Sequence record: OQ834936
DNA: 64,000 nucleotides
Reading direction: 5' to 3' (one strand)
Source: Shigella phage Henu12
In this document: in pieces, positions 3,338-45,232 of the stretch
How the letters are laid out: the number at the start of each line of letters is the position of its first letter
How positions within the stretch are numbered: the first letter of the stretch is position 1
The notes under the pieces: generated by a model
The model's input: the letters and a program-made list of their open reading frames with translations, nothing else
What the model was told of the DNA's origin: nothing
Database searches by the model: none
Program-made: the position numbers and the translations under genes

Positions 3338-3607
3338 TCACTTCCTCGTTTTAAGGACTGCATAGATTTCTTTAGACTCTTCTCCGAACCATGTGTAGTG
3401 ATTCTCGTTGATTTCAGGATGGTTGTCAACACGTATTTTGCAATCTCTTCCAACATGTTTAAGTTGTGCAGAAACACCCTGCATAAAGATGTGACAAGTT
3501 ACATCATCCATAACCGTTGGCATAATGTCAAATCTCATGTAAGTGTTATTTGGTCTTGGTAACAGAAGATAACCTTCCACAAAAAATGTTTCATTCTTCT
3601 CTGTCAT
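3338..3607 (-). CDS. hypothetical protein (89 aa)
   Basis: ORF track; overlaps the downstream gene start by 4 nt. Confidence 0.5.
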   Translation of the reverse strand: MTEKNETFFVEGYLLLPRPNNTYMRFDIMPTVMDDVTCHIFMQGVSAQLKHVGRDCKIRVDNHPEINENHYTWFGEESKEIYAVLKTRK

Positions 3608-3873
3608 TGCTGCCTATTCCCTAACAAAATCATATCAATTAAATTGTTTGCCTTAATAGTACATTCATAGTAACCATCACGATAAAACTCAAGAGCACTT
3701 GCAAGGTCTTCACCTTTAGTGCCTTTAACCTCATATCGTGCTTCTTCTTGAGTGTACTTGTCACTCTCACTTACTTGGGAGTTTTTGAAGGTACTGTTCA
3801 CTTTGTTCGTTGAACACCCTGACATAAGGCTCAGTAGCACAATCATTAATAAAGACTGTCTTAGTTTTTTCAT
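3604..3873 (-). CDS. putative o-spanin (outer-membrane lipoprotein; signal peptide ending LMSGC)
   Basis: Lipobox-like signal; gene starts inside the 3' end of the upstream TM/coiled-coil gene in another frame, as in Rz/Rz1. Confidence 0.5.
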   Translation of the reverse strand: MKKLRQSLLMIVLLSLMSGCSTNKVNSTFKNSQVSESDKYTQEEARYEVKGTKGEDLASALEFYRDGYYECTIKANNLIDMILLGNRQQ

Positions 3874-4114
3874 AGTTCAATACCTCTTTGGTGTGTTTGT
3901 TTTTAGCAAGCACATCTTTCAAATCATTTTTGTAATTGGAGCTAAGATTTGATAAACCTTCTTGATAAGCATCTTTAGCAACACTTACAAGTCTCTGGTT
4001 AGTTAACTCCTTTTCATTAACTTGACTGGTCTTGTAAGTGTAACCTCCCCAAGCACCAACACCTATTAAGAAAATGATTACAAAAGCTGCTTGACAAAAT
4101 TCTTTAAACGTCAT
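3767..4114 (-). CDS. putative i-spanin (N-terminal TM helix plus periplasmic domain)
   Basis: N-terminal hydrophobic helix FVIIFLIGVGAWGG; overlaps the lipoprotein gene by about 107 nt. Confidence 0.5.
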   Translation of the reverse strand: MTFKEFCQAAFVIIFLIGVGAWGGYTYKTSQVNEKELTNQRLVSVAKDAYQEGLSNLSSNYKNDLKDVLAKNKHTKEVLNYEKTKTVFINDCATEPYVRVFNEQSEQYLQKLPSK

Positions 4115-36165: not shown

Positions 36166-36402
36166 ATGTTAAAATTATTGATACCAGCTTTAGTAGTTCT
36201 ACTAGTTGGGTGTAACCCTTCTTACGAGAATAAGGATGCTTCTTACAGACTTCCTCCAGAAATGCAAGACTGCAAGATTTATAAGCTTAATGGTGATGCA
36301 ACTAGCAGGGATGTTATTGTAGTTCGCTGTCCAAATTCTCAGACGACTACTTCTTACAAGTATGGAAAGAATAGTCAGTCACATACTACTGTTTTTGATT
36401 GA
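36166..36402 (+). CDS. putative lipoprotein (signal peptide ending LLVGC)
   Basis: Lipobox-like LVGC after a hydrophobic signal. Confidence 0.5.
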   Translation: MLKLLIPALVVLLVGCNPSYENKDASYRLPPEMQDCKIYKLNGDATSRDVIVVRCPNSQTTTSYKYGKNSQSHTTVFD

Positions 36403-40297: not shown

Positions 40298-40566
40298 AAA
40301 TCTTAAGCGGAGTATCACAGTGTTACATGAATGATGGTGAGCCAGTTAAATGCTGCCATTGTGGAGGTGAGAACTTCCAAGGTGAAGTTTCAGAGATTGT
40401 CTCTGGCAACATCGCTGAAGAGTACACCCGTTGCTGTGGATGTGGAAAGATTTTATCTTTTTGGGCTTATGGAAGTTATGAACCACAACCTCACCTTATT
40501 TACCATCCGAACAGGATTGTGAAGCGTGTTCTGAACTGGTTCATTATCAAAGGATTTACAAAATGA
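40294..40566 (+). CDS. zinc-ribbon protein (CxxC...CxxC)
   Basis: CCHCGG and CCGCG cysteine clusters. Confidence 0.45.
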   Translation: MKILSGVSQCYMNDGEPVKCCHCGGENFQGEVSEIVSGNIAEEYTRCCGCGKILSFWAYGSYEPQPHLIYHPNRIVKRVLNWFIIKGFTK

Positions 40567-41108
40567 TTAAGCTAATTTTTGCAAGTGGTATTAACGGGGA
40601 ATTTGGCACAGCTACTGGAATGCCTTGGCCTCGTAATAAACAAGATATGGCAGAGTTTAAGAAGCAGACTATTAACCAGTTAGTCTTGGTGGGTAGCGAA
40701 ACTTGGAAGACTCTTGGGAGCAAACCTTTGCCAAACCGTGAGAACCTTGTCTTGACAAACTCTCTTGACTTTTATGGTCTGGACTTTAAAGATGATTCTC
40801 ATTGCAAAGCAAAAGTTAAGTCTGAAGCTTTTGGGGCTTTCCTAAAGTATATTGATAGTTCTATTGATGAAGATGTTTTAGTAATCGGTGGAGCCAATAT
40901 CTTAATCTCAGCTTTGCCGTATGCTGACGTAGTTTTCCACAGTGTTATTAAGGAAGTTACTGAAGAGGCTACTGTCAAGCTACCTTATGAGGGTTTCTTC
41001 CAGTACTTGTATGACACAGAGTTATTTGCTAAAGTACAGTCCAAACCCTCAGAAGATAAGTCTGTGGTGTTTGATACCTATGTTCCACAAGTAAGAGGAC
41101 GTTTCTAA
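40563..41108 (+). CDS. frd: dihydrofolate reductase
   Basis: DHFR-like N-terminus (GMPWP...F) and VIGGANI glycine motif; directly upstream of thymidylate synthase. Confidence 0.75.
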   Translation: MIKLIFASGINGEFGTATGMPWPRNKQDMAEFKKQTINQLVLVGSETWKTLGSKPLPNRENLVLTNSLDFYGLDFKDDSHCKAKVKSEAFGAFLKYIDSSIDEDVLVIGGANILISALPYADVVFHSVIKEVTEEATVKLPYEGFFQYLYDTELFAKVQSKPSEDKSVVFDTYVPQVRGRF

Positions 41109-41109
41109 T

Positions 41110-42009
41110 ATGTCACAAGCAGATGTAAGCTACAAAGCTATTTTAAACCATGTTTTATCAGTTGGTGAGTTGCGTAAAACCCGAACTGGCTCAGTGATTT
41201 CGACCTTTGCTCCACCTGAGTTCCGTTTTGATATGCGTAGTGGATTCCCATTAATCACCTCAAAACAAACATTTATGCGTCAAGTCCTCGGTGAAGCATT
41301 ATGGTTTATGAACGGTGAAAACCAACTAGGCCATTTGCGTTACAGAACTTGGGGGGAGAACGACGGAGAGCGTTGGACTATCTGGACAGATGATTTTAAA
41401 CGTTGGTTGAAAACAACCTATGCTACAGAGAATGATTGGCTGGAGGACGCTGGAGGAAGAATCTACGGAGTACAATGGAGAGCCTACGAAGGTCATGGTG
41501 GCGTTGTTGTAGACCAGTTGAGTAATCTTGTAGAGAAGATGAGAAAGTCCCCTACAGACCGTTACATGCTCGTTAACGCATGGAATGCAGCAGATATCTC
41601 AAGTAACTCTATGGCATTAGCACCTTGTCATGTACTTTTTCAGATTTATATCTCGAACACTAATGAGGTGGATTTGAAATGGTATCAGCGTTCTTGTGAT
41701 ACGTTCTTAGGGTTACCGTTTAACATCGCTTCCTATGCCTTTATCTTGGAAGTGTTGTGTAAACTGACGGGATATACACCGCGATATCTGATAGGGACTT
41801 ATGGTGATACTCAAATATACCAGAACCATATGTCGCAGGTTTTTCAACTTCTTGGTAATGAAGAGTTTCCAGCACCTAAGTTTGAAATTCATCAAGATTT
41901 GAAGTCTCTTGAAGACTTGAGACATATGACAGCAGATGACTTTCTAGGTGGGTTGAAAGGGTATAAACATGCTGGTAAGATTGAAGCACCTTTATCAGTA
42001 GGTAAGTAG
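41110..42009 (+). CDS. thyA: thymidylate synthase
   Basis: Active-site block PCH-FQ and QRSCDTFLGLPFNIASYA. Confidence 0.92.
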   Translation: MSQADVSYKAILNHVLSVGELRKTRTGSVISTFAPPEFRFDMRSGFPLITSKQTFMRQVLGEALWFMNGENQLGHLRYRTWGENDGERWTIWTDDFKRWLKTTYATENDWLEDAGGRIYGVQWRAYEGHGGVVVDQLSNLVEKMRKSPTDRYMLVNAWNAADISSNSMALAPCHVLFQIYISNTNEVDLKWYQRSCDTFLGLPFNIASYAFILEVLCKLTGYTPRYLIGTYGDTQIYQNHMSQVFQLLGNEEFPAPKFEIHQDLKSLEDLRHMTADDFLGGLKGYKHAGKIEAPLSVGK

Positions 42010-42010
42010 A

Positions 42011-42050
42011 AACAAAAAAGGCTCCCGTAAAAAGGAGCCTTAGAATTATT
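42011..42050. terminator. bidirectional intrinsic terminator (GGCUCC-loop-GGAGCC flanked by A- and U-runs) at the convergence point
   Basis: Hairpin 42020-42039 with A6 upstream and U-rich downstream; sits between the thyA stop and the stop of the 42046-42420 gene. Confidence 0.6.
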
Positions 42051-42420
42051 TCTTTTTAGTGCTTTGGGTATTTTGTTCTGTAATTGCTTGCAAAGCTGAT
42101 ACAGATTGTGCTAAGTTGTTAACACTGTCAGAGAACTTATCAAGGGTCTTAGTCAACTTAGCGTTTTCTCCCTTAACATTCTCTAGCTGAACTTTCTGGT
42201 TCTCCATCCCTAATTGTAGGAGCTTCATATCAGACTGTAAATCACGAATAGCTGAATAGTTACCTTTTGAGTAACTATCCAACTGTTGTAACTTTGTGTT
42301 GATAGAAACTTCTTGCTTTCCATCAGAGACCTGCATCGTAGTGTACATGCCAATTACACTGAAAATACCTACAACAATTGCACCAATGTTGTTCTTAAAA
42401 GCCTCTTCAATCCACTTCAT
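42046..42420 (-). CDS. membrane protein with N-terminal TM helix and coiled-coil domain
   Basis: Hydrophobic helix IGAIVVGIFSVIGMY followed by heptad-like Q/L/K-rich sequence. Confidence 0.5.
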   Translation of the reverse strand: MKWIEEAFKNNIGAIVVGIFSVIGMYTTMQVSDGKQEVSINTKLQQLDSYSKGNYSAIRDLQSDMKLLQLGMENQKVQLENVKGENAKLTKTLDKFSDSVNNLAQSVSALQAITEQNTQSTKKK

Positions 42421-42614
42421 TATTTTTCACCCTTAAAAGCCTTTTCCAAGGTATCTACAAATTCATCATCGATAGGTGTGTCTGTTTTACTCGCAAGGTA
42501 TCTTGCAAGCTTAAAGAACACTTTTTCAATCATGTATTCGCTAAGAAGAGAAAGTAGAAGCTTCCAGAAGAATGCCCCAAGATTTTTCAAGAGGATTGCT
42601 AGAATGGTTGGCAT
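42420..42614 (-). CDS. small membrane protein (64 aa)
   Basis: Hydrophobic N-terminal half, charged C-terminus. Confidence 0.5.
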   Translation of the reverse strand: MPTILAILLKNLGAFFWKLLLSLLSEYMIEKVFFKLARYLASKTDTPIDDEFVDTLEKAFKGEK

Positions 42615-42663
42615 TTAATCACCTTACTTCTTGAGCCAAGATGGTGAGAATACCTACTAAGAA

Positions 42664-42692
42664 ATATTAACACCATCTTGACAGTTAGTCAA
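42664..42692 (-). promoter_or_regulatory. sigma70-like promoter TTGACT-N17-TAATAT bracketed by a perfect 10-bp inverted repeat (CAAGATGGTG, 42637-42646 and 42671-42680)
   Basis: -10 lies inside the 24-bp loop of the inverted repeat; operator-like arrangement. Confidence 0.45.
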
Positions 42693-42700
42693 CAAGGTAA

Positions 42701-45232
42701 TTATGCAGTTCTTACCCAAGCCATTAGTTTAATGTAAGTGTTAAGAACACTGAATGCTGCACCAGAACCAGTTGCCCCAGTGTTACCACTTAATGTGTGG
42801 GCATGAGCACCAATTGTCACAGTGTGTGTATGGTTACCATCGCCAGCAGCACTACCAGAGAATCCGTGAGCGTGGTCACCTACAGCTTCTGTTGCTTGAT
42901 AACCTGCAACACCAGCCCATTGACCAGCAGCACCGACATAAGCAAACTGCTGAGAAGTGTTCAGGTAACGAACTGCAACATTATGGGCGTGACCACCCGC
43001 ACCAGCCGTTGAACCAGACACAGAGTGTCCATGCCAACCATTTAATGAAGTCCCAATCGTCCCGTGGTCATGTGTAGATGTTGTTGCAGAGAAACTATGT
43101 GTATGACTTGGAAGATGACCTACAGCAATACTCTTAGAGTCTGAGCCACCTACAGAACCAACATCCTCACCAGTTGAAGAGGCAATTCTAATAGTTCTGA
43201 ACTGACCATTTGATAGGTAAGCCCAAGTAGTTCCTGCAAATGCTGTATTAGGGTTTACATTCGATGCAAAGAACGTTACCATACCAACTGGATAGATTTT
43301 GTTAAGGTCTGTTGAGTTAGAAATAGCTGTTGCAATCTTCTGGTCAGTCTCTGCTTTAGTGTAAGCTCCAACATCTCCAGCAGAAGGTTTCTGGAAAGTG
43401 TTGTAATCAATTACCACATAACCATCAACCGCATTAGCTGGCTTAGTAGATGACACAGTAGGAGCAGAATGGACAGTAATAACTGCACCATTGACACCCT
43501 GAAACTCTACCAGAGTACCCATCGCATATGGCCCAACTTGTAAGTAAACATCATAGTTATCTCCACCAACTGAAACAGTACATACATCAACACCAACACC
43601 ACTATCTGTACTTCTGTAAAGAACAGCATTTAGACCCGATGGGTTTGCATTTCCACTTCTCAATACTAGTTCATTTTTACCACACTGATTAAATGAACCA
43701 ACGTTGAAACCTGTACCACCATAGAGTCTTAAAGTTGCTGTTGATGGTGTTTGTGGCATTGTTACAGTAGCAATTTTCACCCAACCACTGTCATAAGTTG
43801 TTGCATTCATAGCAGTAGCTCTTGAGAATACAGTATTAGCAACACTTTGTGTGTAGTACCTTGCATCAAAGTTAGATACATCTGTAGGGATAACTTGACC
43901 TTCAACTCTTAAAGGTTTATTGAGATAAGCTACATCCCTTAACTCTAGATATGTATTCACCTTATAGTTGTGAAAGCGAATAACATCAGAACTGTCGAAA
44001 TTACCAATAAACCATCTACCAGCACCAGTACTATCTTTTGCAATAACCCCGTTGCTATTCATTGGCTGGGTATTCTGAAGAACTAGTGGAACTCCATCTG
44101 CAAGAATAGTTTGAGCACCTGTGAAAGTGTTTGCAGAGTTATTTCTTGCAAGACTACTTAATGTTGCAGCCGGAATATATCTTGAGTCAAAGTTAGCAAA
44201 GTCAGATGGTTTAACCTGACCAGTCACATTCAGAGGCTTGCTGAAGAAGAACTCTGTAGAGAGTCTCATAGTTGCACCTGTCATCTGGTTAAACAAGTTA
44301 ACATCCTGCTTAGTCCCATCAGGTTGACCAAGATACCAAGACTCTGAACCAGAACCTGCGTAGGCTTGAACAAATACTGCACCGTTTGCTGTAGCTGGTT
44401 TCAATCTAAGCAAAGACCCATCAGAAATAATTGTCTGATAGTTTGTGAAGTTGTTTGCACCTGAGAAGGTATTATTTTCAGTTAGTCTTGCAAATCTTTG
44501 GTCAGCAGCATTCTGAGTGAAGTATCTAGCATCTAAGTTAGAGAAGTCAGAAGGTTGAACTTGACCAGTGATTCTTAGTGTTTTATTGATAGCAATATCA
44601 TTAGTGAGATTAACTAGGGAACCGGTCTTGTTGTTGTAGAAAATAACATCGTCACTTCCTGAATCATTACCTACATACCACCTATTAGCTCCAGTACTAT
44701 CCTGGCCTCTGATATACAACGGTGAGTTCTCAGAAGAGTTTTTTAACCTAATAGCTTCACCATTTGCTTGAATAACTTGTTGGGAGGTAAAGATGTTATT
44801 TGCAGCTAGTCTTGAGTATCTTGCATCATTTTCCTCATTTGTTCTCATACCCAAATCAGCAGGGCTTGGTTTATTTAGAGTATGGTAAACAAATGCTGTT
44901 CTTGTTGCATCAGAAACCTTCAAAGCTAACCCATTAGCGTTAATTTTAAAAGTCTTGGCAACATCCCCTAAAATAATCTCAGAAGAACCTGTTGGGTCTA
45001 ATAAATCTTTTCCACCGTAAGTTAACTTAACAATACCCAGATTACCTGTCATATTCCCGCCAGCTAATTGCAAGAATCTTTCAAGTCTGAATGAAGCTAA
45101 GAAGTTTGCATAGGTCATTTTACGGTCTTCATCACCTAGCATATCTGACCTTTTAATTACTCTCAAATGTAATAGGTCGTCTGAGCGAACTGTATCAATT
45201 GTGTTTAGTTCACTTAGTTTGTATTCAGCCAT
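42701..45232 (-). CDS. tail fibre protein with internal roughly 100-aa repeats and C-terminal His-x-His repeat domain
   Basis: Three tandem modules each ending (V/I)xGQVxPxDxxNFDxRY; C-terminal HxH motifs (HGHSV, HAHNV, HAHGF, HTHTV, HAHTL). Confidence 0.75.
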   Translation of the reverse strand: MAEYKLSELNTIDTVRSDDLLHLRVIKRSDMLGDEDRKMTYANFLASFRLERFLQLAGGNMTGNLGIVKLTYGGKDLLDPTGSSEIILGDVAKTFKINANGLALKVSDATRTAFVYHTLNKPSPADLGMRTNEENDARYSRLAANNIFTSQQVIQANGEAIRLKNSSENSPLYIRGQDSTGANRWYVGNDSGSDDVIFYNNKTGSLVNLTNDIAINKTLRITGQVQPSDFSNLDARYFTQNAADQRFARLTENNTFSGANNFTNYQTIISDGSLLRLKPATANGAVFVQAYAGSGSESWYLGQPDGTKQDVNLFNQMTGATMRLSTEFFFSKPLNVTGQVKPSDFANFDSRYIPAATLSSLARNNSANTFTGAQTILADGVPLVLQNTQPMNSNGVIAKDSTGAGRWFIGNFDSSDVIRFHNYKVNTYLELRDVAYLNKPLRVEGQVIPTDVSNFDARYYTQSVANTVFSRATAMNATTYDSGWVKIATVTMPQTPSTATLRLYGGTGFNVGSFNQCGKNELVLRSGNANPSGLNAVLYRSTDSGVGVDVCTVSVGGDNYDVYLQVGPYAMGTLVEFQGVNGAVITVHSAPTVSSTKPANAVDGYVVIDYNTFQKPSAGDVGAYTKAETDQKIATAISNSTDLNKIYPVGMVTFFASNVNPNTAFAGTTWAYLSNGQFRTIRIASSTGEDVGSVGGSDSKSIAVGHLPSHTHSFSATTSTHDHGTIGTSLNGWHGHSVSGSTAGAGGHAHNVAVRYLNTSQQFAYVGAAGQWAGVAGYQATEAVGDHAHGFSGSAAGDGNHTHTVTIGAHAHTLSGNTGATGSGAAFSVLNTYIKLMAWVRTA

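What the first reader, a model, noticed from the sequence alone, without database searches (positions are those of the whole stretch)
42046..42692. Stand-alone two-gene membrane-protein cassette with an operator-like inverted repeat over its promoter
Seen: two small membrane proteins (64 aa; 124 aa with TM plus coiled coil) sit between the thyA convergence terminator and the tail fibres, driven by TTGACT-N17-TAATAT whose -10 lies inside a perfect 10-bp inverted repeat (CAAGATGGTG 42637-42646 and its complement 42671-42680), and ended by a bidirectional terminator. Inference: a separately regulated unit; candidates are holin/antiholin, superinfection exclusion or another membrane-acting function, with the inverted repeat as a repressor operator.
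Basis: partly seen in the sequence, partly recalled or inferred. Interest (0 to 1): 0.55.

Follow-up and report, generated by a model that had tools for sequence, protein, structure and literature searches.

The report
Felix O1-type two-gene lysis cassette
The two small membrane-protein genes are the lysis module of Felix O1-like phages, pairing a homologue of the PM2 lysis factor P18 with the family's unproven "putative holin"; it has its own promoter, and the inverted repeat over that promoter looks more like an RNA hairpin than a repressor site, so the finding is mostly ordinary.

Summary
The window is a Mooglevirus (Felix O1-like) phage, 99.9% identical to Shigella phage Henu11.

- **64-aa protein:** a homologue of corticovirus PM2 lysis factor P18 (Pfam PF26925 Phage_PM2_Gpl). 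This link was published for Felix O1 in 2007.
- **124-aa protein:** an N-terminal membrane helix plus one 86-residue helix. It is Felix O1 gp79, widely annotated "putative holin" with no experimental test. Its holin role rests on association. P18-like genes sit beside holins or single-pass membrane proteins in PM2, RB49-like, T7-like and Ounavirinae phages. Disrupting the presumed Bas63 counterparts, matched by gene order, lowers phage fitness.
- **Promoter:** the σ70-type extended -10 promoter is conserved in three of four related lineages, so a separate transcription unit is plausible.
- **Inverted repeat:** it is conserved, but arm spacing varies by up to 3 bp. It occurs only once in 64 kb. 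Sister lineages have an unrelated-sequence terminator hairpin between the tail-fibre (or adhesin) gene and the cassette; one keeps the promoter without a repeat over it. It is probably an RNA hairpin in read-through transcripts, helping to hide the ribosome-binding site. An operator is not excluded.

Verdict: a known kind of cassette, with a modest, undescribed regulatory detail.

The parts
42420..42614 (-). 64-aa gene: homologue of PM2 lysis factor P18 (Pfam PF26925 Phage_PM2_Gpl; PHROG 402; Felix O1 gp78)
   Evidence: ORF. PHROG 402, E = 1e-21. PF26925 is precomputed on homologues of 53-96% identity and named Phage_PM2_Gpl. 41% identity, E = 7e-12, to ORF l of corticovirus GXT1010. Family motif KTxTxxDDEF. 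PMC1950889 names Felix O1 as carrying a P18 homologue. AF2 model: helix 2-43, loop 44-49, helix 50-60.
42046..42420 (-). 124-aa gene: single N-terminal membrane helix plus a long coiled-coil helix (PHROG 4038; Felix O1 gp79; annotated 'putative holin'). Its start overlaps the upstream stop codon by one base.
   Evidence: ORF. PHROG 4038, E = 3e-70, function unknown. No Pfam hit above the curated cut-offs (only sub-threshold coiled-coil matches) and no NCBIfam family. AF2 model: helices 3-29 and 37-122. 'Holin' labels in public records. Conserved across four Ounavirinae lineages.
42687..42692 (-). -35 hexamer TTGACT
   Evidence: TTGAC is conserved in window-type loci, in L049/L050 and in Kolesnikvirus.
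42664..42672 (-). Extended -10: TGT-TAATAT
   Evidence: TG before the second hexamer. Equivalents: TGA-TAAGAT in L049/L050 and TGC-TACCTT in Kolesnikvirus, all at a 17-nt spacing.
42665..42680 (-). 5' arm of the inverted repeat / hairpin (CAAGATGGTGTTAATA). It overlaps the promoter spacer and the -10.
42637..42652 (-). 3' arm of the inverted repeat / hairpin (TATTCTCACCATCTTG). It lies in the 5' UTR of the promoter's own transcript and contains UCACC, which is complementary to the Shine-Dalgarno sequence.
   Evidence: CCATCTTGGC is kept even in L049/L050, which lack the partner arm.
42691..42703 (-). Outer left strand: tail-fibre stop codon plus UUACCUUGUU (an anti-Shine-Dalgarno sequence), predicted to pair with the ribosome-binding site in read-through RNA
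   Evidence: Minimum-energy fold. Probability that the SD is unpaired is 0.01 in the long RNA.
42618..42625 (-). Shine-Dalgarno sequence AAGGTGAT of the 64-aa gene
   Evidence: Read directly from the sequence. Paired in the folds.
42018..42041 (.). Bidirectional intrinsic terminator shared with the convergent thyA gene
   Evidence: Corresponds to Felix O1 t79/t80 (PMC3185647, Table 2). Annotated as a terminator in phage Mijalis.
42701..45232 (-). Upstream tail-fibre gene (context: the source of read-through transcripts)

Best explanation
The locus is the conserved two-gene lysis module of Felix O1-like phages (Ounavirinae).

**Gene 1 (64 aa)** belongs to the PM2 P18 / Phage_PM2_Gpl family. It has one long N-terminal hydrophobic-to-amphipathic helix and an invariant TxTxxDD loop. 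In corticovirus PM2, P18 is needed to break the outer membrane at lysis.

**Gene 2 (124 aa)** is translationally coupled to gene 1. It is anchored in the inner membrane by one helix and carries an 86-residue coiled-coil rod. It is most likely the holin-type partner that permeabilises the inner membrane and releases the soluble endolysin encoded elsewhere (inferred).

**Transcription.** The pair is transcribed from its own host-type extended -10 promoter, placed 8 nt after the tail-fibre stop codon. It ends at the terminator shared with thyA.

**The inverted repeat** is best read as an RNA hairpin, not a protein-binding site. The complete hairpin exists only in transcripts reading through from the tail-fibre gene, because the promoter's own transcripts start in its loop. 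It occupies the same intergenic gap where sister lineages have an intrinsic terminator. With a flanking anti-Shine-Dalgarno sequence, it is predicted to bury the ribosome-binding site of gene 1 in read-through RNA. This would insulate lysis-protein synthesis from heavy late transcription.

**Shown:** homology of gene 1, protein architectures, synteny, conservation, predicted folds.
**Inferred:** the holin role of gene 2, promoter activity and the effect of the hairpin on translation.
For: **Identity of the phage and locus**
- 99.9% identical to Henu11; 273 Ounavirinae-type records share the locus.

**64-aa protein is P18-like**
-.
- PMC1950889 states that P18 homologues occur in Felix O1 and RB49.
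- P17/P18 functions are described in PMC9502842 and PMC6356626.

**124-aa protein as holin, by association**
P18-like genes sit next to:
- the holin-like P17 position in a PM2-like virus;
- holin t in RB49 and its relatives;
- a 90-aa membrane-helix-plus-coiled-coil protein in a T7-like gene order, between the tail-fibre-like gene and the small terminase subunit, which is the slot of T7 holin gp17.5;
- the 111-128-aa homologues in four Ounavirinae lineages.

**Canonical spanins are elsewhere**
- An overlapped spanin pair lies at 3604-4114 (PMC6139136). Gene 2 is therefore not needed as the i-spanin.

**Fitness data (Bas63 PhageMaP, preprint 10.1101/2024.10.10.617714)**
Genes were matched to the window by synteny.
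- Gene 29 (the 124-aa homologue): -1.4 to -1.7 in MG1655.
- Gene 28 (the 64-aa homologue): about -0.6 to -0.75 in MG1655.
- Endolysin: about -0.5 to -0.9 in MG1655.
- Spanins and a second annotated 'holin*' are dispensable.

**Promoter**
-. Conserved as TTGAC-N17 with TGn in three lineages.
- The L049 type has a terminator upstream of it.
- Felix O1 RT-PCR puts genes 78/79 earlier than tail-fibre gene 77 (PMC3185647, Table 3; weak data).

**Hairpin**
- Fold z = -4.56.
- 98.6% of cells paired, with several G-U pairs and a few compensated pairs.
- Loop length varies from 9 to 12 nt.
- Kolesnikvirus and the L045 type have unrelated-sequence terminator hairpins between the tail-fibre or adhesin gene and the cassette. 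Each is again flanked by an anti-SD/SD pair.
- Probability that the SD is unpaired: 0.01 in long RNA versus 0.26 in short RNA in the window.
Against: **Against the holin role**
- No test of holin activity in any family member was found in the papers searched.
- There is no detectable similarity to PM2 P17-like proteins, T-type holins or any holin family.
- An 86-residue coiled-coil rod is more typical of i-spanins. A relative hits the Rz-like spanin PHROG 739 at E = 2e-7.
- A sigma-70-type promoter, and the 'early' RT-PCR call for gp79, are unusual for a holin.

**Against the RNA reading of the repeat**
- The arms are far more conserved than a bare structure would require: 1 of 32 arm positions differs where about 40% of third codon positions differ.
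- 13 of the 19 inner pairs never vary, so covariation support is weak.

**Against the occlusion model**
- It is not uniform. In Felixounavirus-type sequences the SD is no more exposed in the short transcript (0.21) than in the long one (0.25-0.43).
- The hairpin has no U-tract, so it is not itself a terminator.

**Other weaknesses**
- The transcription start site is only predicted.
- The Bas63 genes were matched by synteny, not by sequence.
Confidence: 0.6

Rival explanations
1. The inverted repeat is a DNA operator. A phage-encoded (or host) dimeric regulator binds the two arms flanking the -10 and switches the cassette promoter off or on at a set time.
For: - The repeat brackets the -10 and includes the TG of the extended -10.
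- Both arms are almost invariant in 30 loci from three genera, while nearby synonymous sites are about 40% diverged.
- This is stronger sequence conservation than pairing alone would demand.
- These phages encode putative transcriptional regulators (Bas63 gene 35).
Against: - The distance between the arms varies (9-12 nt) among otherwise conserved relatives. That would rotate the half-sites by up to about 100 degrees.
- The half-site centres are about 28 bp apart, which is atypical for a dimeric repressor.
- No second copy of the 16-mer occurs in 64 kb beyond chance.
- The extended stem needs G-U pairs, which means sense-strand RNA.
- The same promoter exists without a repeat over it in L049/L050 (fold z = -1.9 and -1.2).
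- Kolesnikvirus has an unrelated terminator hairpin there.
Confidence: 0.2
2. The 124-aa protein is not the holin. It is an inner-membrane-anchored, periplasm-reaching coiled-coil partner of the P18-like protein. Together they form a lipoprotein-independent, spanin-like device that disrupts the outer membrane, and the true holin lies elsewhere in the genome.
For: - Architecture is like an i-spanin: an N-terminal membrane helix plus an 86-residue helix of about 13 nm.
- Weak to moderate hits to the Rz-like spanin PHROG 739: E = 0.011 for the window protein, 2e-7 for the L045 relative, 0.0024 for the L088 neighbour.
- P18 is the outer-membrane-disruption factor of PM2 (PMC9502842).
- The phages named as P18 carriers (PM2, PaP3, P-SSM2, P-SSM4, S-PM2; PMC1950889) are all listed as spanin-less in PMC6139136.
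- The two genes are translationally coupled and always adjacent in Ounavirinae.
Against: - Profile comparison shows no similarity to lambda Rz (sequence recalled from memory) or to the phage's own i-spanin.
- The phage already has a canonical overlapped spanin pair.
- In Bas63 the spanins are dispensable, but gene 29 is clearly needed for fitness in MG1655. That fits a holin better than an outer-membrane accessory.
- In PM2 and RB49 the neighbour of P18 is a holin.
- The coiled-coil hits may reflect composition only.
Confidence: 0.2
3. The cassette acts early as a superinfection-exclusion or membrane-remodelling function, like T4 Imm/Sp, and not in lysis.
For: - A host-type sigma-70 promoter.
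- Felix O1 RT-PCR lists gp79 as maximal at 5 min and gp78 at 25 min, against 60 min for tail-fibre gene 77 (PMC3185647, Table 3).
Against: - That RT-PCR table also calls the major capsid gene 'early', so it is unreliable.
- The 64-aa protein is homologous to an experimentally defined lysis factor (PMC9502842).
- Neighbours of family members in other phages are lysis or holin genes.
- Disruption lowers fitness in single-infection pooled assays, where exclusion should not matter.
- No similarity to Imm, Sp, Cor or Llp families was found.
Confidence: 0.07

Closest known systems
PM2 (Corticoviridae) lysis system P17/P18 (Krupovic et al. 2007, as cited in PMC1950889, PMC9502842 and PMC6356626)
   Same: - The 64-aa protein is a sequence homologue of P18 / Gp l (41% identity to a PM2-like ORF l; Pfam PF26925).
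- It is adjacent to and co-transcribed with a small protein that has an N-terminal membrane helix followed by a coiled coil, as P17 is.
- It lies at the end of a late structural operon.
   Different: - The gene order is reversed (P18-like gene first).
- The partner is 124 aa, against about 50 aa, with no detectable sequence similarity to the P17-like protein.
- The host phage also has a canonical endolysin and spanins. PM2 is on the spanin-less list and was long thought to lack its own endolysin; P5 is now proposed as one (PMC9502842).
T4-type holin T locus as arranged in RB49-like phages
   Same: - The order is tail-fibre gene, then P18-like gene, then a single-pass N-terminal-helix protein with a large extracytoplasmic domain.
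- This matches the order in the window.
   Different: - T has a globular periplasmic domain and belongs to PHROG 860.
- The 124-aa protein is a pure coiled coil (PHROG 4038) with no similarity to T.
T7 gp17.5 holin slot
   Same: - A small membrane lysis protein is encoded directly after the tail-fibre gene.
- In a T7-like contig (L088) that slot holds a membrane-helix-plus-coiled-coil protein and a P18-like protein.
   Different: No sequence similarity to gp17.5 was found, and there are two genes where T7 has one.
T4 gene e / I-TevI type translational control, in which the ribosome-binding site is sequestered in read-through transcripts and a promoter sits inside the hairpin (my own knowledge of McPheeters et al. 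1986 and Gott et al. 1988; not retrieved here)
   Same: - The promoter lies within a stable hairpin.
- Long transcripts are predicted to bury the Shine-Dalgarno sequence.
- Transcripts from the internal promoter lack the 5' strand.
   Different: - The internal promoter here is sigma-70-like and the read-through comes from late genes, which is the opposite temporal logic.
- The short transcript still pairs its SD partly with UCACC.
- The effect is not uniform across relatives.
Two-component spanins (lambda Rz/Rz1)
   Same: The 124-aa protein has the i-spanin-like plan of an N-terminal membrane helix plus a periplasmic coiled coil. P18 acts on the outer membrane in PM2.
   Different: - It has no lipoprotein partner.
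- There is no sequence similarity to Rz.
- A genuine overlapped spanin pair exists elsewhere in the window.

Membership tests
PM2 P18 / Pfam PF26925 Phage_PM2_Gpl (64-aa protein) | Significant sequence similarity to corticoviral Gp l / P18 | tested here: met
   BLASTP 41% identity, E = 7e-12 pairwise, to GXT1010 ORF l. The database-wide tblastn E-value is 9e-3. PF26925 is precomputed on homologues of 53-96% identity. The family is absent from the local Pfam copy, which explains the lack of a hit.
PM2 P18 / Pfam PF26925 Phage_PM2_Gpl (64-aa protein) | Family architecture: 50-80 aa, an N-terminal hydrophobic/amphipathic helix, and a conserved K-T-x-T-x-x-D-D-E-F motif | tested here: met
   T44, D49 and D50 are invariant; F33, F34, A37 and T46 are nearly invariant across 10 diverse members. 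AF2 model: helix 2-43, loop 44-49, helix 50-60. Best hydrophobic 19-mer has KD 1.66.
PM2 P18 / Pfam PF26925 Phage_PM2_Gpl (64-aa protein) | Required for outer-membrane disruption at lysis | not testable with these tools
   Only indirect evidence: presumed Bas63 counterpart (gene 28, by gene order) has a mild fitness cost in two hosts and none in others.
Holin (124-aa protein) | Small integral membrane protein with at least one membrane helix and a charged C-terminus | tested here: met
   Membrane helix at residues 11-29. The protein ends in KKK. AF2 model.
Holin (124-aa protein) | Homology to an established holin family | tested here: not met
   No Pfam hit above the curated cut-offs and no NCBIfam family hit. 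PHROG 4038 has no assigned function. hhalign against a P17-like protein finds nothing. Only a Kolesnikvirus relative grazes holin PHROG 1296, at E = 0.006.
Holin (124-aa protein) | Genetic linkage to other lysis genes | tested here: met
   It overlaps the P18-like gene. P18-like genes neighbour holins in PM2-like and RB49-like phages. The endolysin, however, is encoded elsewhere (PMC4319497).
Holin (124-aa protein) | Forms lethal membrane lesions that release endolysin at a defined time | not testable with these tools
   No experiment found in the papers searched. Presumed Bas63 counterpart (gene 29) scores -1.4 to -1.7 in MG1655, which shows importance but not function.
i-spanin (124-aa protein) | N-terminal membrane helix plus a periplasmic coiled coil | tested here: met
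i-spanin (124-aa protein) | A cognate outer-membrane lipoprotein (o-spanin) gene embedded, overlapping or adjacent | tested here: not met
   A lipobox scan finds candidates only at 3604..3873(-), 36166..36402(+) and a weak one at 40556..40723(-), none in or next to the cassette. The first of these is the real overlapped spanin partner. The 64-aa protein has no cysteine.
i-spanin (124-aa protein) | Sequence similarity to Rz-type families | tested here: inconclusive
   PHROG 739 at E = 0.011 (window protein) and 2e-7 (L045 relative). hhalign against lambda Rz (sequence from memory) and against the phage's own i-spanin finds nothing.
Repressor operator (inverted repeat) | Dyad-symmetric half-sites at a fixed spacing | tested here: not met
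   The spacing between arms varies from 9 to 12 nt among relatives.
Repressor operator (inverted repeat) | Overlaps core promoter elements | tested here: met
Repressor operator (inverted repeat) | Conserved together with the promoter it controls, or repeated at other regulated promoters | tested here: not met
   It is unique within the 64 kb. The promoter is kept without a repeat over it in L049/L050, and with an unrelated hairpin in Kolesnikvirus.
Intrinsic terminator (inverted repeat) | A stable stem followed by a U-tract | tested here: not met
   The stem is followed by GGCUCAAGAAG and the terminator scan does not report it. The hairpins in the same intergenic gap in Kolesnikvirus, the L045 type and the L049 type do have U-tracts.
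RBS-sequestering hairpin with an internal promoter (T4 gene e type) | The Shine-Dalgarno sequence is paired in read-through RNA and freed in the promoter's own RNA | tested here: inconclusive
   Probability that the SD is unpaired, long versus short RNA: window 0.01 versus 0.26; Felixounavirus type 0.25-0.43 versus 0.21; Kolesnikvirus 0.27-0.37 versus 0.91-0.94.

The most novel reading that the evidence does not exclude
P18-like proteins (PF26925) and an adjacent single-pass coiled-coil membrane protein form a widespread two-gene lysis module. It would recur in corticoviruses, T7-like phages and Ounavirinae. In the Felix O1 group the 124-aa 'holin' would actually be a periplasm-spanning partner of the P18-like protein. 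The pair would then be a lipoprotein-free route to outer-membrane disruption working alongside canonical spanins. A promoter-embedded hairpin would decide which transcripts (own-promoter or late read-through) are translated.
Probability: 0.15. Interest if true: 0.55.

Novelty: new member of a known kind. Interest (0 to 1): 0.3.

Why it matters
Felix O1-like phages are widely used for Salmonella and E. coli typing, biocontrol and therapy, yet no experimental identification of their holin turned up in the papers searched. The P18-like gene is labelled "hypothetical" in most of the records listed.

Linking the 64-aa gene to the PM2 lysis factor would correct annotation in several hundred genomes. 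The repeated pairing of this family with holin-type proteins also gives concrete candidates for lysis-timing engineering.

The promoter-in-a-hairpin arrangement is a cheap, testable example of how a phage may shield a dosage-sensitive lysis operon from read-through of highly expressed structural genes. None of this changes current concepts of phage lysis.

Tried and rejected
- **Protein family searches:** Pfam and NCBIfam gave only sub-threshold coiled-coil noise for the 124-aa protein and nothing for the 64-aa protein. PF26925 is missing from the local Pfam copy.
- **Profile comparisons of the 124-aa family:** no relationship to a PM2 P17-like protein, lambda Rz (sequence recalled from memory) or the phage's own i-spanin. 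A PDB profile search returned only generic coiled coils such as Lpp, sigma-1 and designed coils. A BFVD fold search found nothing.
- **Rfam:** no family for the hairpin region.
- **Other copies of the repeat:** a search of the window for further copies found none beyond chance.
- **Covariation on 16 distinct sequences:** too little variation to decide; 13 of 19 inner pairs are invariant.
- **Accessibility calculations for the 'read-through is silenced, own transcript is translated' idea:** results were inconsistent between lineages, so it is kept only as a partial model.
- **Small ORF starting at the AUG inside the left arm:** rejected because loop indels shift its frame among relatives.
- **The + strand ORF 42313..42618:** rejected because it is antisense to two genes under clear purifying selection.
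- **Fetching the Bas63 record by a guessed accession:** failed; MZ501111 is Bas51. Bas63 genes 28/29 were therefore matched by synteny only.
- **Literature search for transcriptomics or start-site mapping of Felixounavirus:** nothing found.
Full report
**What the window is.** A megablast of 41900-42800 finds 273 phage records. The best is Shigella phage Henu11 at 99.9% identity, followed by Mooglevirus and Felixounavirus genomes. The window is therefore a Felix O1-like myophage (Ounavirinae). The locus lies between the convergent thyA gene and the last tail-fibre gene, as in every relative.

**Checking the observation.** All the described features exist.
- The two ORFs are 42420..42614(-), 64 aa, and 42046..42420(-), 124 aa. 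The stop of the first and the start of the second share one base.
- Both are under purifying selection. Against a Felixounavirus locus, 26 of 34 and 53 of 70 differences lie at third codon positions.
- Each has one N-terminal hydrophobic segment.
- AF2 models the 124-aa protein as helix 3-29 plus one uninterrupted helix 37-122, with pLDDT above 90 over roughly residues 61-110. It models the 64-aa protein as helix 2-43, loop 44-49 and helix 50-60.
- The promoter-like site TTGACT-N17-TAATAT, with a TG giving an extended -10, is found at 42692->42664.
- The inverted repeat has perfect 10-nt arms, extendable to 16 nt at 88%.
- The bidirectional terminator is at 42018-42041 and matches t79/t80 of Felix O1 (PMC3185647).

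Two details need correcting. The -10 hexamer lies just outside the perfect arm, in its imperfect extension. Also, a perfect 10-bp repeat is not in itself rarer than chance in 64 kb: 3 were observed against 3.9 +/- 2.8 in shuffles. The element is real because the 121-nt RNA folds far better than shuffles (-36.2 kcal/mol, z = -4.56). It is also almost invariant in 30 related loci.

**The 64-aa protein.**
- It has no hit in the local Pfam or NCBIfam, but it belongs to PHROG 402.
- A translated search finds relatives outside Ounavirinae. These include RB49-like T4-type phages, Vibrio and Aeromonas phages, 7-11-like podophages and a PM2-like corticovirus, where the hit is "gp l; Orf l".
- Pairwise comparison gives 41% identity and E = 7e-12.
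- Homologues in the large protein collection carry the precomputed family PF26925, whose name is Phage_PM2_Gpl.
- A ten-member alignment shows an invariant T..DD and a near-invariant FF..A...KT.T..DDEF core.
- The literature already says this. PMC1950889 reports P18 homologues in PaP3, Felix O1, RB49, P-SSM4, S-PM2 and P-SSM2, citing Krupovic et al. 2007.
- In PM2, P17 permeabilises the cytoplasmic membrane as a distinct class of holin. P18 is needed to disrupt the outer membrane (PMC9502842, PMC6356626).
- This gene is Felix O1 gp78. Its identity is known, although most of the GenBank records listed call it hypothetical.

**The 124-aa protein.**
- It is Felix O1 gp79. Whichard et al. named it as one of five holin candidates on topology alone (PMC3185647). 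Many records now call it "holin" or "putative holin".
- I found no experimental support for that label.
- It belongs to PHROG 4038, of unknown function, and is conserved at 27-93% identity in four Ounavirinae lineages.
- It shows no profile similarity to the P17-like protein of a PM2-like virus, to lambda Rz or to the phage's own i-spanin. PDB and BFVD searches return nothing specific.
- Its plan, a membrane anchor plus an 86-residue rod, resembles an i-spanin. Relatives graze the Rz-like spanin PHROG 739, at E = 0.011 for the window protein and 2e-7 for a 28%-identical relative.
- However, the window already contains a canonical overlapped spanin pair: an i-spanin at 3767..4114(-) and a lipoprotein o-spanin at 3604..3873(-). 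This agrees with the spanin census (PMC6139136) and the Moogle genome note (PMC4319497).

**Evidence from gene neighbourhoods.** P18-like genes repeatedly sit beside a single-pass membrane protein.
- In the PM2-like virus, a 49-aa protein with a membrane helix plus coiled coil lies directly upstream.
- In RB49 and a relative, the order is tail fibre, P18-like gene, holin t.
- In a T7-like gene order (L088), the order is tail-fibre-like gene, a 90-aa membrane-helix-plus-coiled-coil protein, the P18-like gene, then the small terminase subunit. That is the slot of T7 holin gp17.5.
- In L090, a coiled-coil protein with a C-terminal membrane helix follows the P18-like gene.
- In a Vibrio phage, the P18-like gene follows a lysozyme gene.
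- In 7-11-like podophages it sits in the tail module with no such neighbour.

Two of these neighbours belong to experimentally grounded holin types (PM2 P17 and T4-type T). Association therefore favours a holin-type role for the 124-aa protein.

**Fitness data from a close relative.** In the PhageMaP screen of the Felixounavirus Bas63 (preprint 10.1101/2024.10.10.617714), the gene order is:
- 27, tail fibre
- 28
- 29, "holin*"
- 30, thymidylate synthase
- 31, dihydrofolate reductase

This reproduces the order in the window. I matched the genes by synteny only.

| Bas63 gene | MG1655 | S17 | Defence-strain hosts |
|---|---|---|---|
| 29 (124-aa homologue) | -1.4 to -1.7 | -0.35 to -0.48 | -0.47 (TerY-P); +0.06 to -0.57 (AVAST type 4) |
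| 28 (64-aa homologue) | about -0.6 to -0.75 | about -0.5 to -0.75 | about 0 to +0.3 |
| Endolysin | -0.5 to -0.9 | about -1.0 to -1.2 | +0.25 to +0.4 (TerY-P) |

The spanins and a second "holin*" score positive in S17 and MG1655. Both genes therefore matter for propagation, gene 29 more so. This fits a holin better than an accessory outer-membrane factor, but it does not prove either.

**The promoter.**
- TTGAC(T/A), a 17-nt spacer and a TGn extended -10 recur just downstream of the upstream structural gene in three lineages. In the window type and Kolesnikvirus it starts a few nucleotides after the tail-fibre stop codon. In L049/L050 it follows an intervening terminator.
- The window type has TGT-TAATAT. 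A 78%-identity lineage (L049/L050) has TGA-TAAGAT. Kolesnikvirus has TGC-TACCTT.
- In L049/L050 a canonical terminator precedes the promoter, which is the textbook layout of an independent unit.
- A fourth lineage (L045-L048, L082) has only a terminator.
- Felix O1 RT-PCR places gp79 and gp78 earlier than tail-fibre gene 77. The same table calls capsid genes early, so I give it little weight (PMC3185647).
- This promoter is not among those listed by Whichard et al.

**The inverted repeat: operator or RNA?**

For an operator:
- It brackets the -10.
- Its arms differ at 1 of 32 positions, where about 40% of third codon positions differ.

Against an operator:
- The distance between arms varies from 9 to 12 nt among relatives.
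- The centres lie about 28 bp apart.
- No further copy exists in 64 kb.
- The full 19-bp stem uses four G-U pairs, so it works only as sense-strand RNA.
- The few variable pairs stay paired: C-G to U-G at one pair, and C-G to U-A in three sequences at another.
- L049/L050 keep the promoter but have no significant hairpin over it (z = -1.9 and -1.2).
- Kolesnikvirus and the L045 type have hairpins of wholly different sequence in the same gap. These are canonical terminators with U-tracts.

In the window, in Kolesnikvirus and in the L045 type, the hairpin is flanked by a short sequence complementary to the Shine-Dalgarno site. In the window this is UUACCUU at 42700-42694 pairing with AAGGUGA. 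The read-through RNA is therefore predicted to form a two-tier structure that buries the ribosome-binding site.

The predicted start of the promoter's own transcript falls in the hairpin loop, so that RNA lacks the 5' arm and the outer anti-SD. This resembles the T4 gene e / I-TevI arrangement, which I know from the literature but did not retrieve here.

Partition-function estimates support the model only partly:

| Lineage | SD unpaired, long RNA | SD unpaired, short RNA |
|---|---|---|
| Window | 0.01 | 0.26 |
| Kolesnikvirus | about 0.3 | 0.9 |
| Felixounavirus type | 0.25-0.43 | 0.21 |

The 3' arm itself contains UCACC, which can pair with the SD in the short RNA. The motif CCATCTTGGC persists in L049/L050 without a partner arm, which I cannot explain.

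I conclude that the repeat most likely acts as RNA, roughly 0.6 against 0.2 for an operator. It is the counterpart, now fused with the promoter, of the tail-fibre-operon terminator or insulator seen in sister lineages. Its exact effect is unresolved. It has no U-tract and matches no Rfam family.

**Comparison with what is known, and novelty.** The cassette is a member of a known kind: a PM2-type P18 lysis factor plus a holin candidate. The P18 link in Felix O1 was published in 2007 and now exists as a Pfam family.

What I did not find described:
- the conserved promoter-in-hairpin arrangement;
- the recurrent pairing of PF26925 genes with single-pass coiled-coil proteins across unrelated phages;
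- the observation that the five phages named as P18 carriers other than Felix O1 and RB49 are all on the published "spanin-less" list (PMC1950889 against PMC6139136). This fits P18 as an alternative outer-membrane disruptor.

These are useful leads but not surprising to a lysis specialist, so the interest score is low to moderate.

Noticed in passing
window 3604-4114 (-): A canonical overlapped two-component spanin pair. The i-spanin is at 3767..4114 (115 aa, N-terminal membrane helix). The o-spanin lipoprotein is at 3604..3873 (89 aa, MKKLRQSLLMIVLLSLMSGC...). The lysis genes of this phage are therefore scattered, as reported for Moogle and Felix O1.
   Followed up: partly
window 36166-36402 (+): A second small lipoprotein ORF (78 aa, MLKLLIPALVVLLVGC...) among small early-looking ORFs. 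It is not next to any i-spanin-like gene. It could be a Cor/Llp-type exclusion lipoprotein; this was not examined.
   Followed up: no
L088 1223-2010; L090 1492-2059; L041 2361-2659; L002 2501-3430: PF26925 (P18-like) genes recur next to single-pass membrane proteins in unrelated phages. Examples are a T7-like contig (in the gp17.5 holin slot, just before the small terminase subunit), a 21-kb contig (a coiled-coil protein with a C-terminal membrane helix), a PM2-like corticovirus and RB49 (holin t).
   Followed up: partly
literature cross-check (PMC1950889 against PMC6139136): PM2, PaP3, P-SSM2, P-SSM4 and S-PM2 are named as carrying P18 homologues. All five appear on the 2018 list of spanin-less phages. 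Felix O1 and RB49 carry both P18-like genes and spanins.
   Followed up: no
L049 and L050, about 1100-1200 (upstream of their P18-like gene): The 5'-UTR motif CCATCTTGGC and the loop-like TTCTTAATAGGT are conserved with the window, even though the complementary 5' arm of the hairpin is absent in this lineage. This hints at a sequence-specific role for the 3' arm on its own.
   Followed up: no
L045-L048 and L082 (upstream of the P18-like gene): In this Ounavirinae-like lineage, two Gp38-type adhesin genes (PF21721 / PF05268) precede the lysis cassette where the window has the tail-fibre gene. Only a canonical terminator separates them from it, with no TTGAC promoter.
   Followed up: no
PhageMaP supplement (Bas63 gene 28): The presumed P18-like gene of Bas63 is labelled 'L-fuculose phosphate aldolase*' there. 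For a protein of about 64 aa this is almost certainly a spurious remote-similarity label.
   Followed up: no
PMC3185647, Table 3: The Felix O1 RT-PCR timing table lists the major capsid gene and several tail genes as 'early' (5 min). Its early call for gp79 should therefore not be over-read.
   Followed up: no
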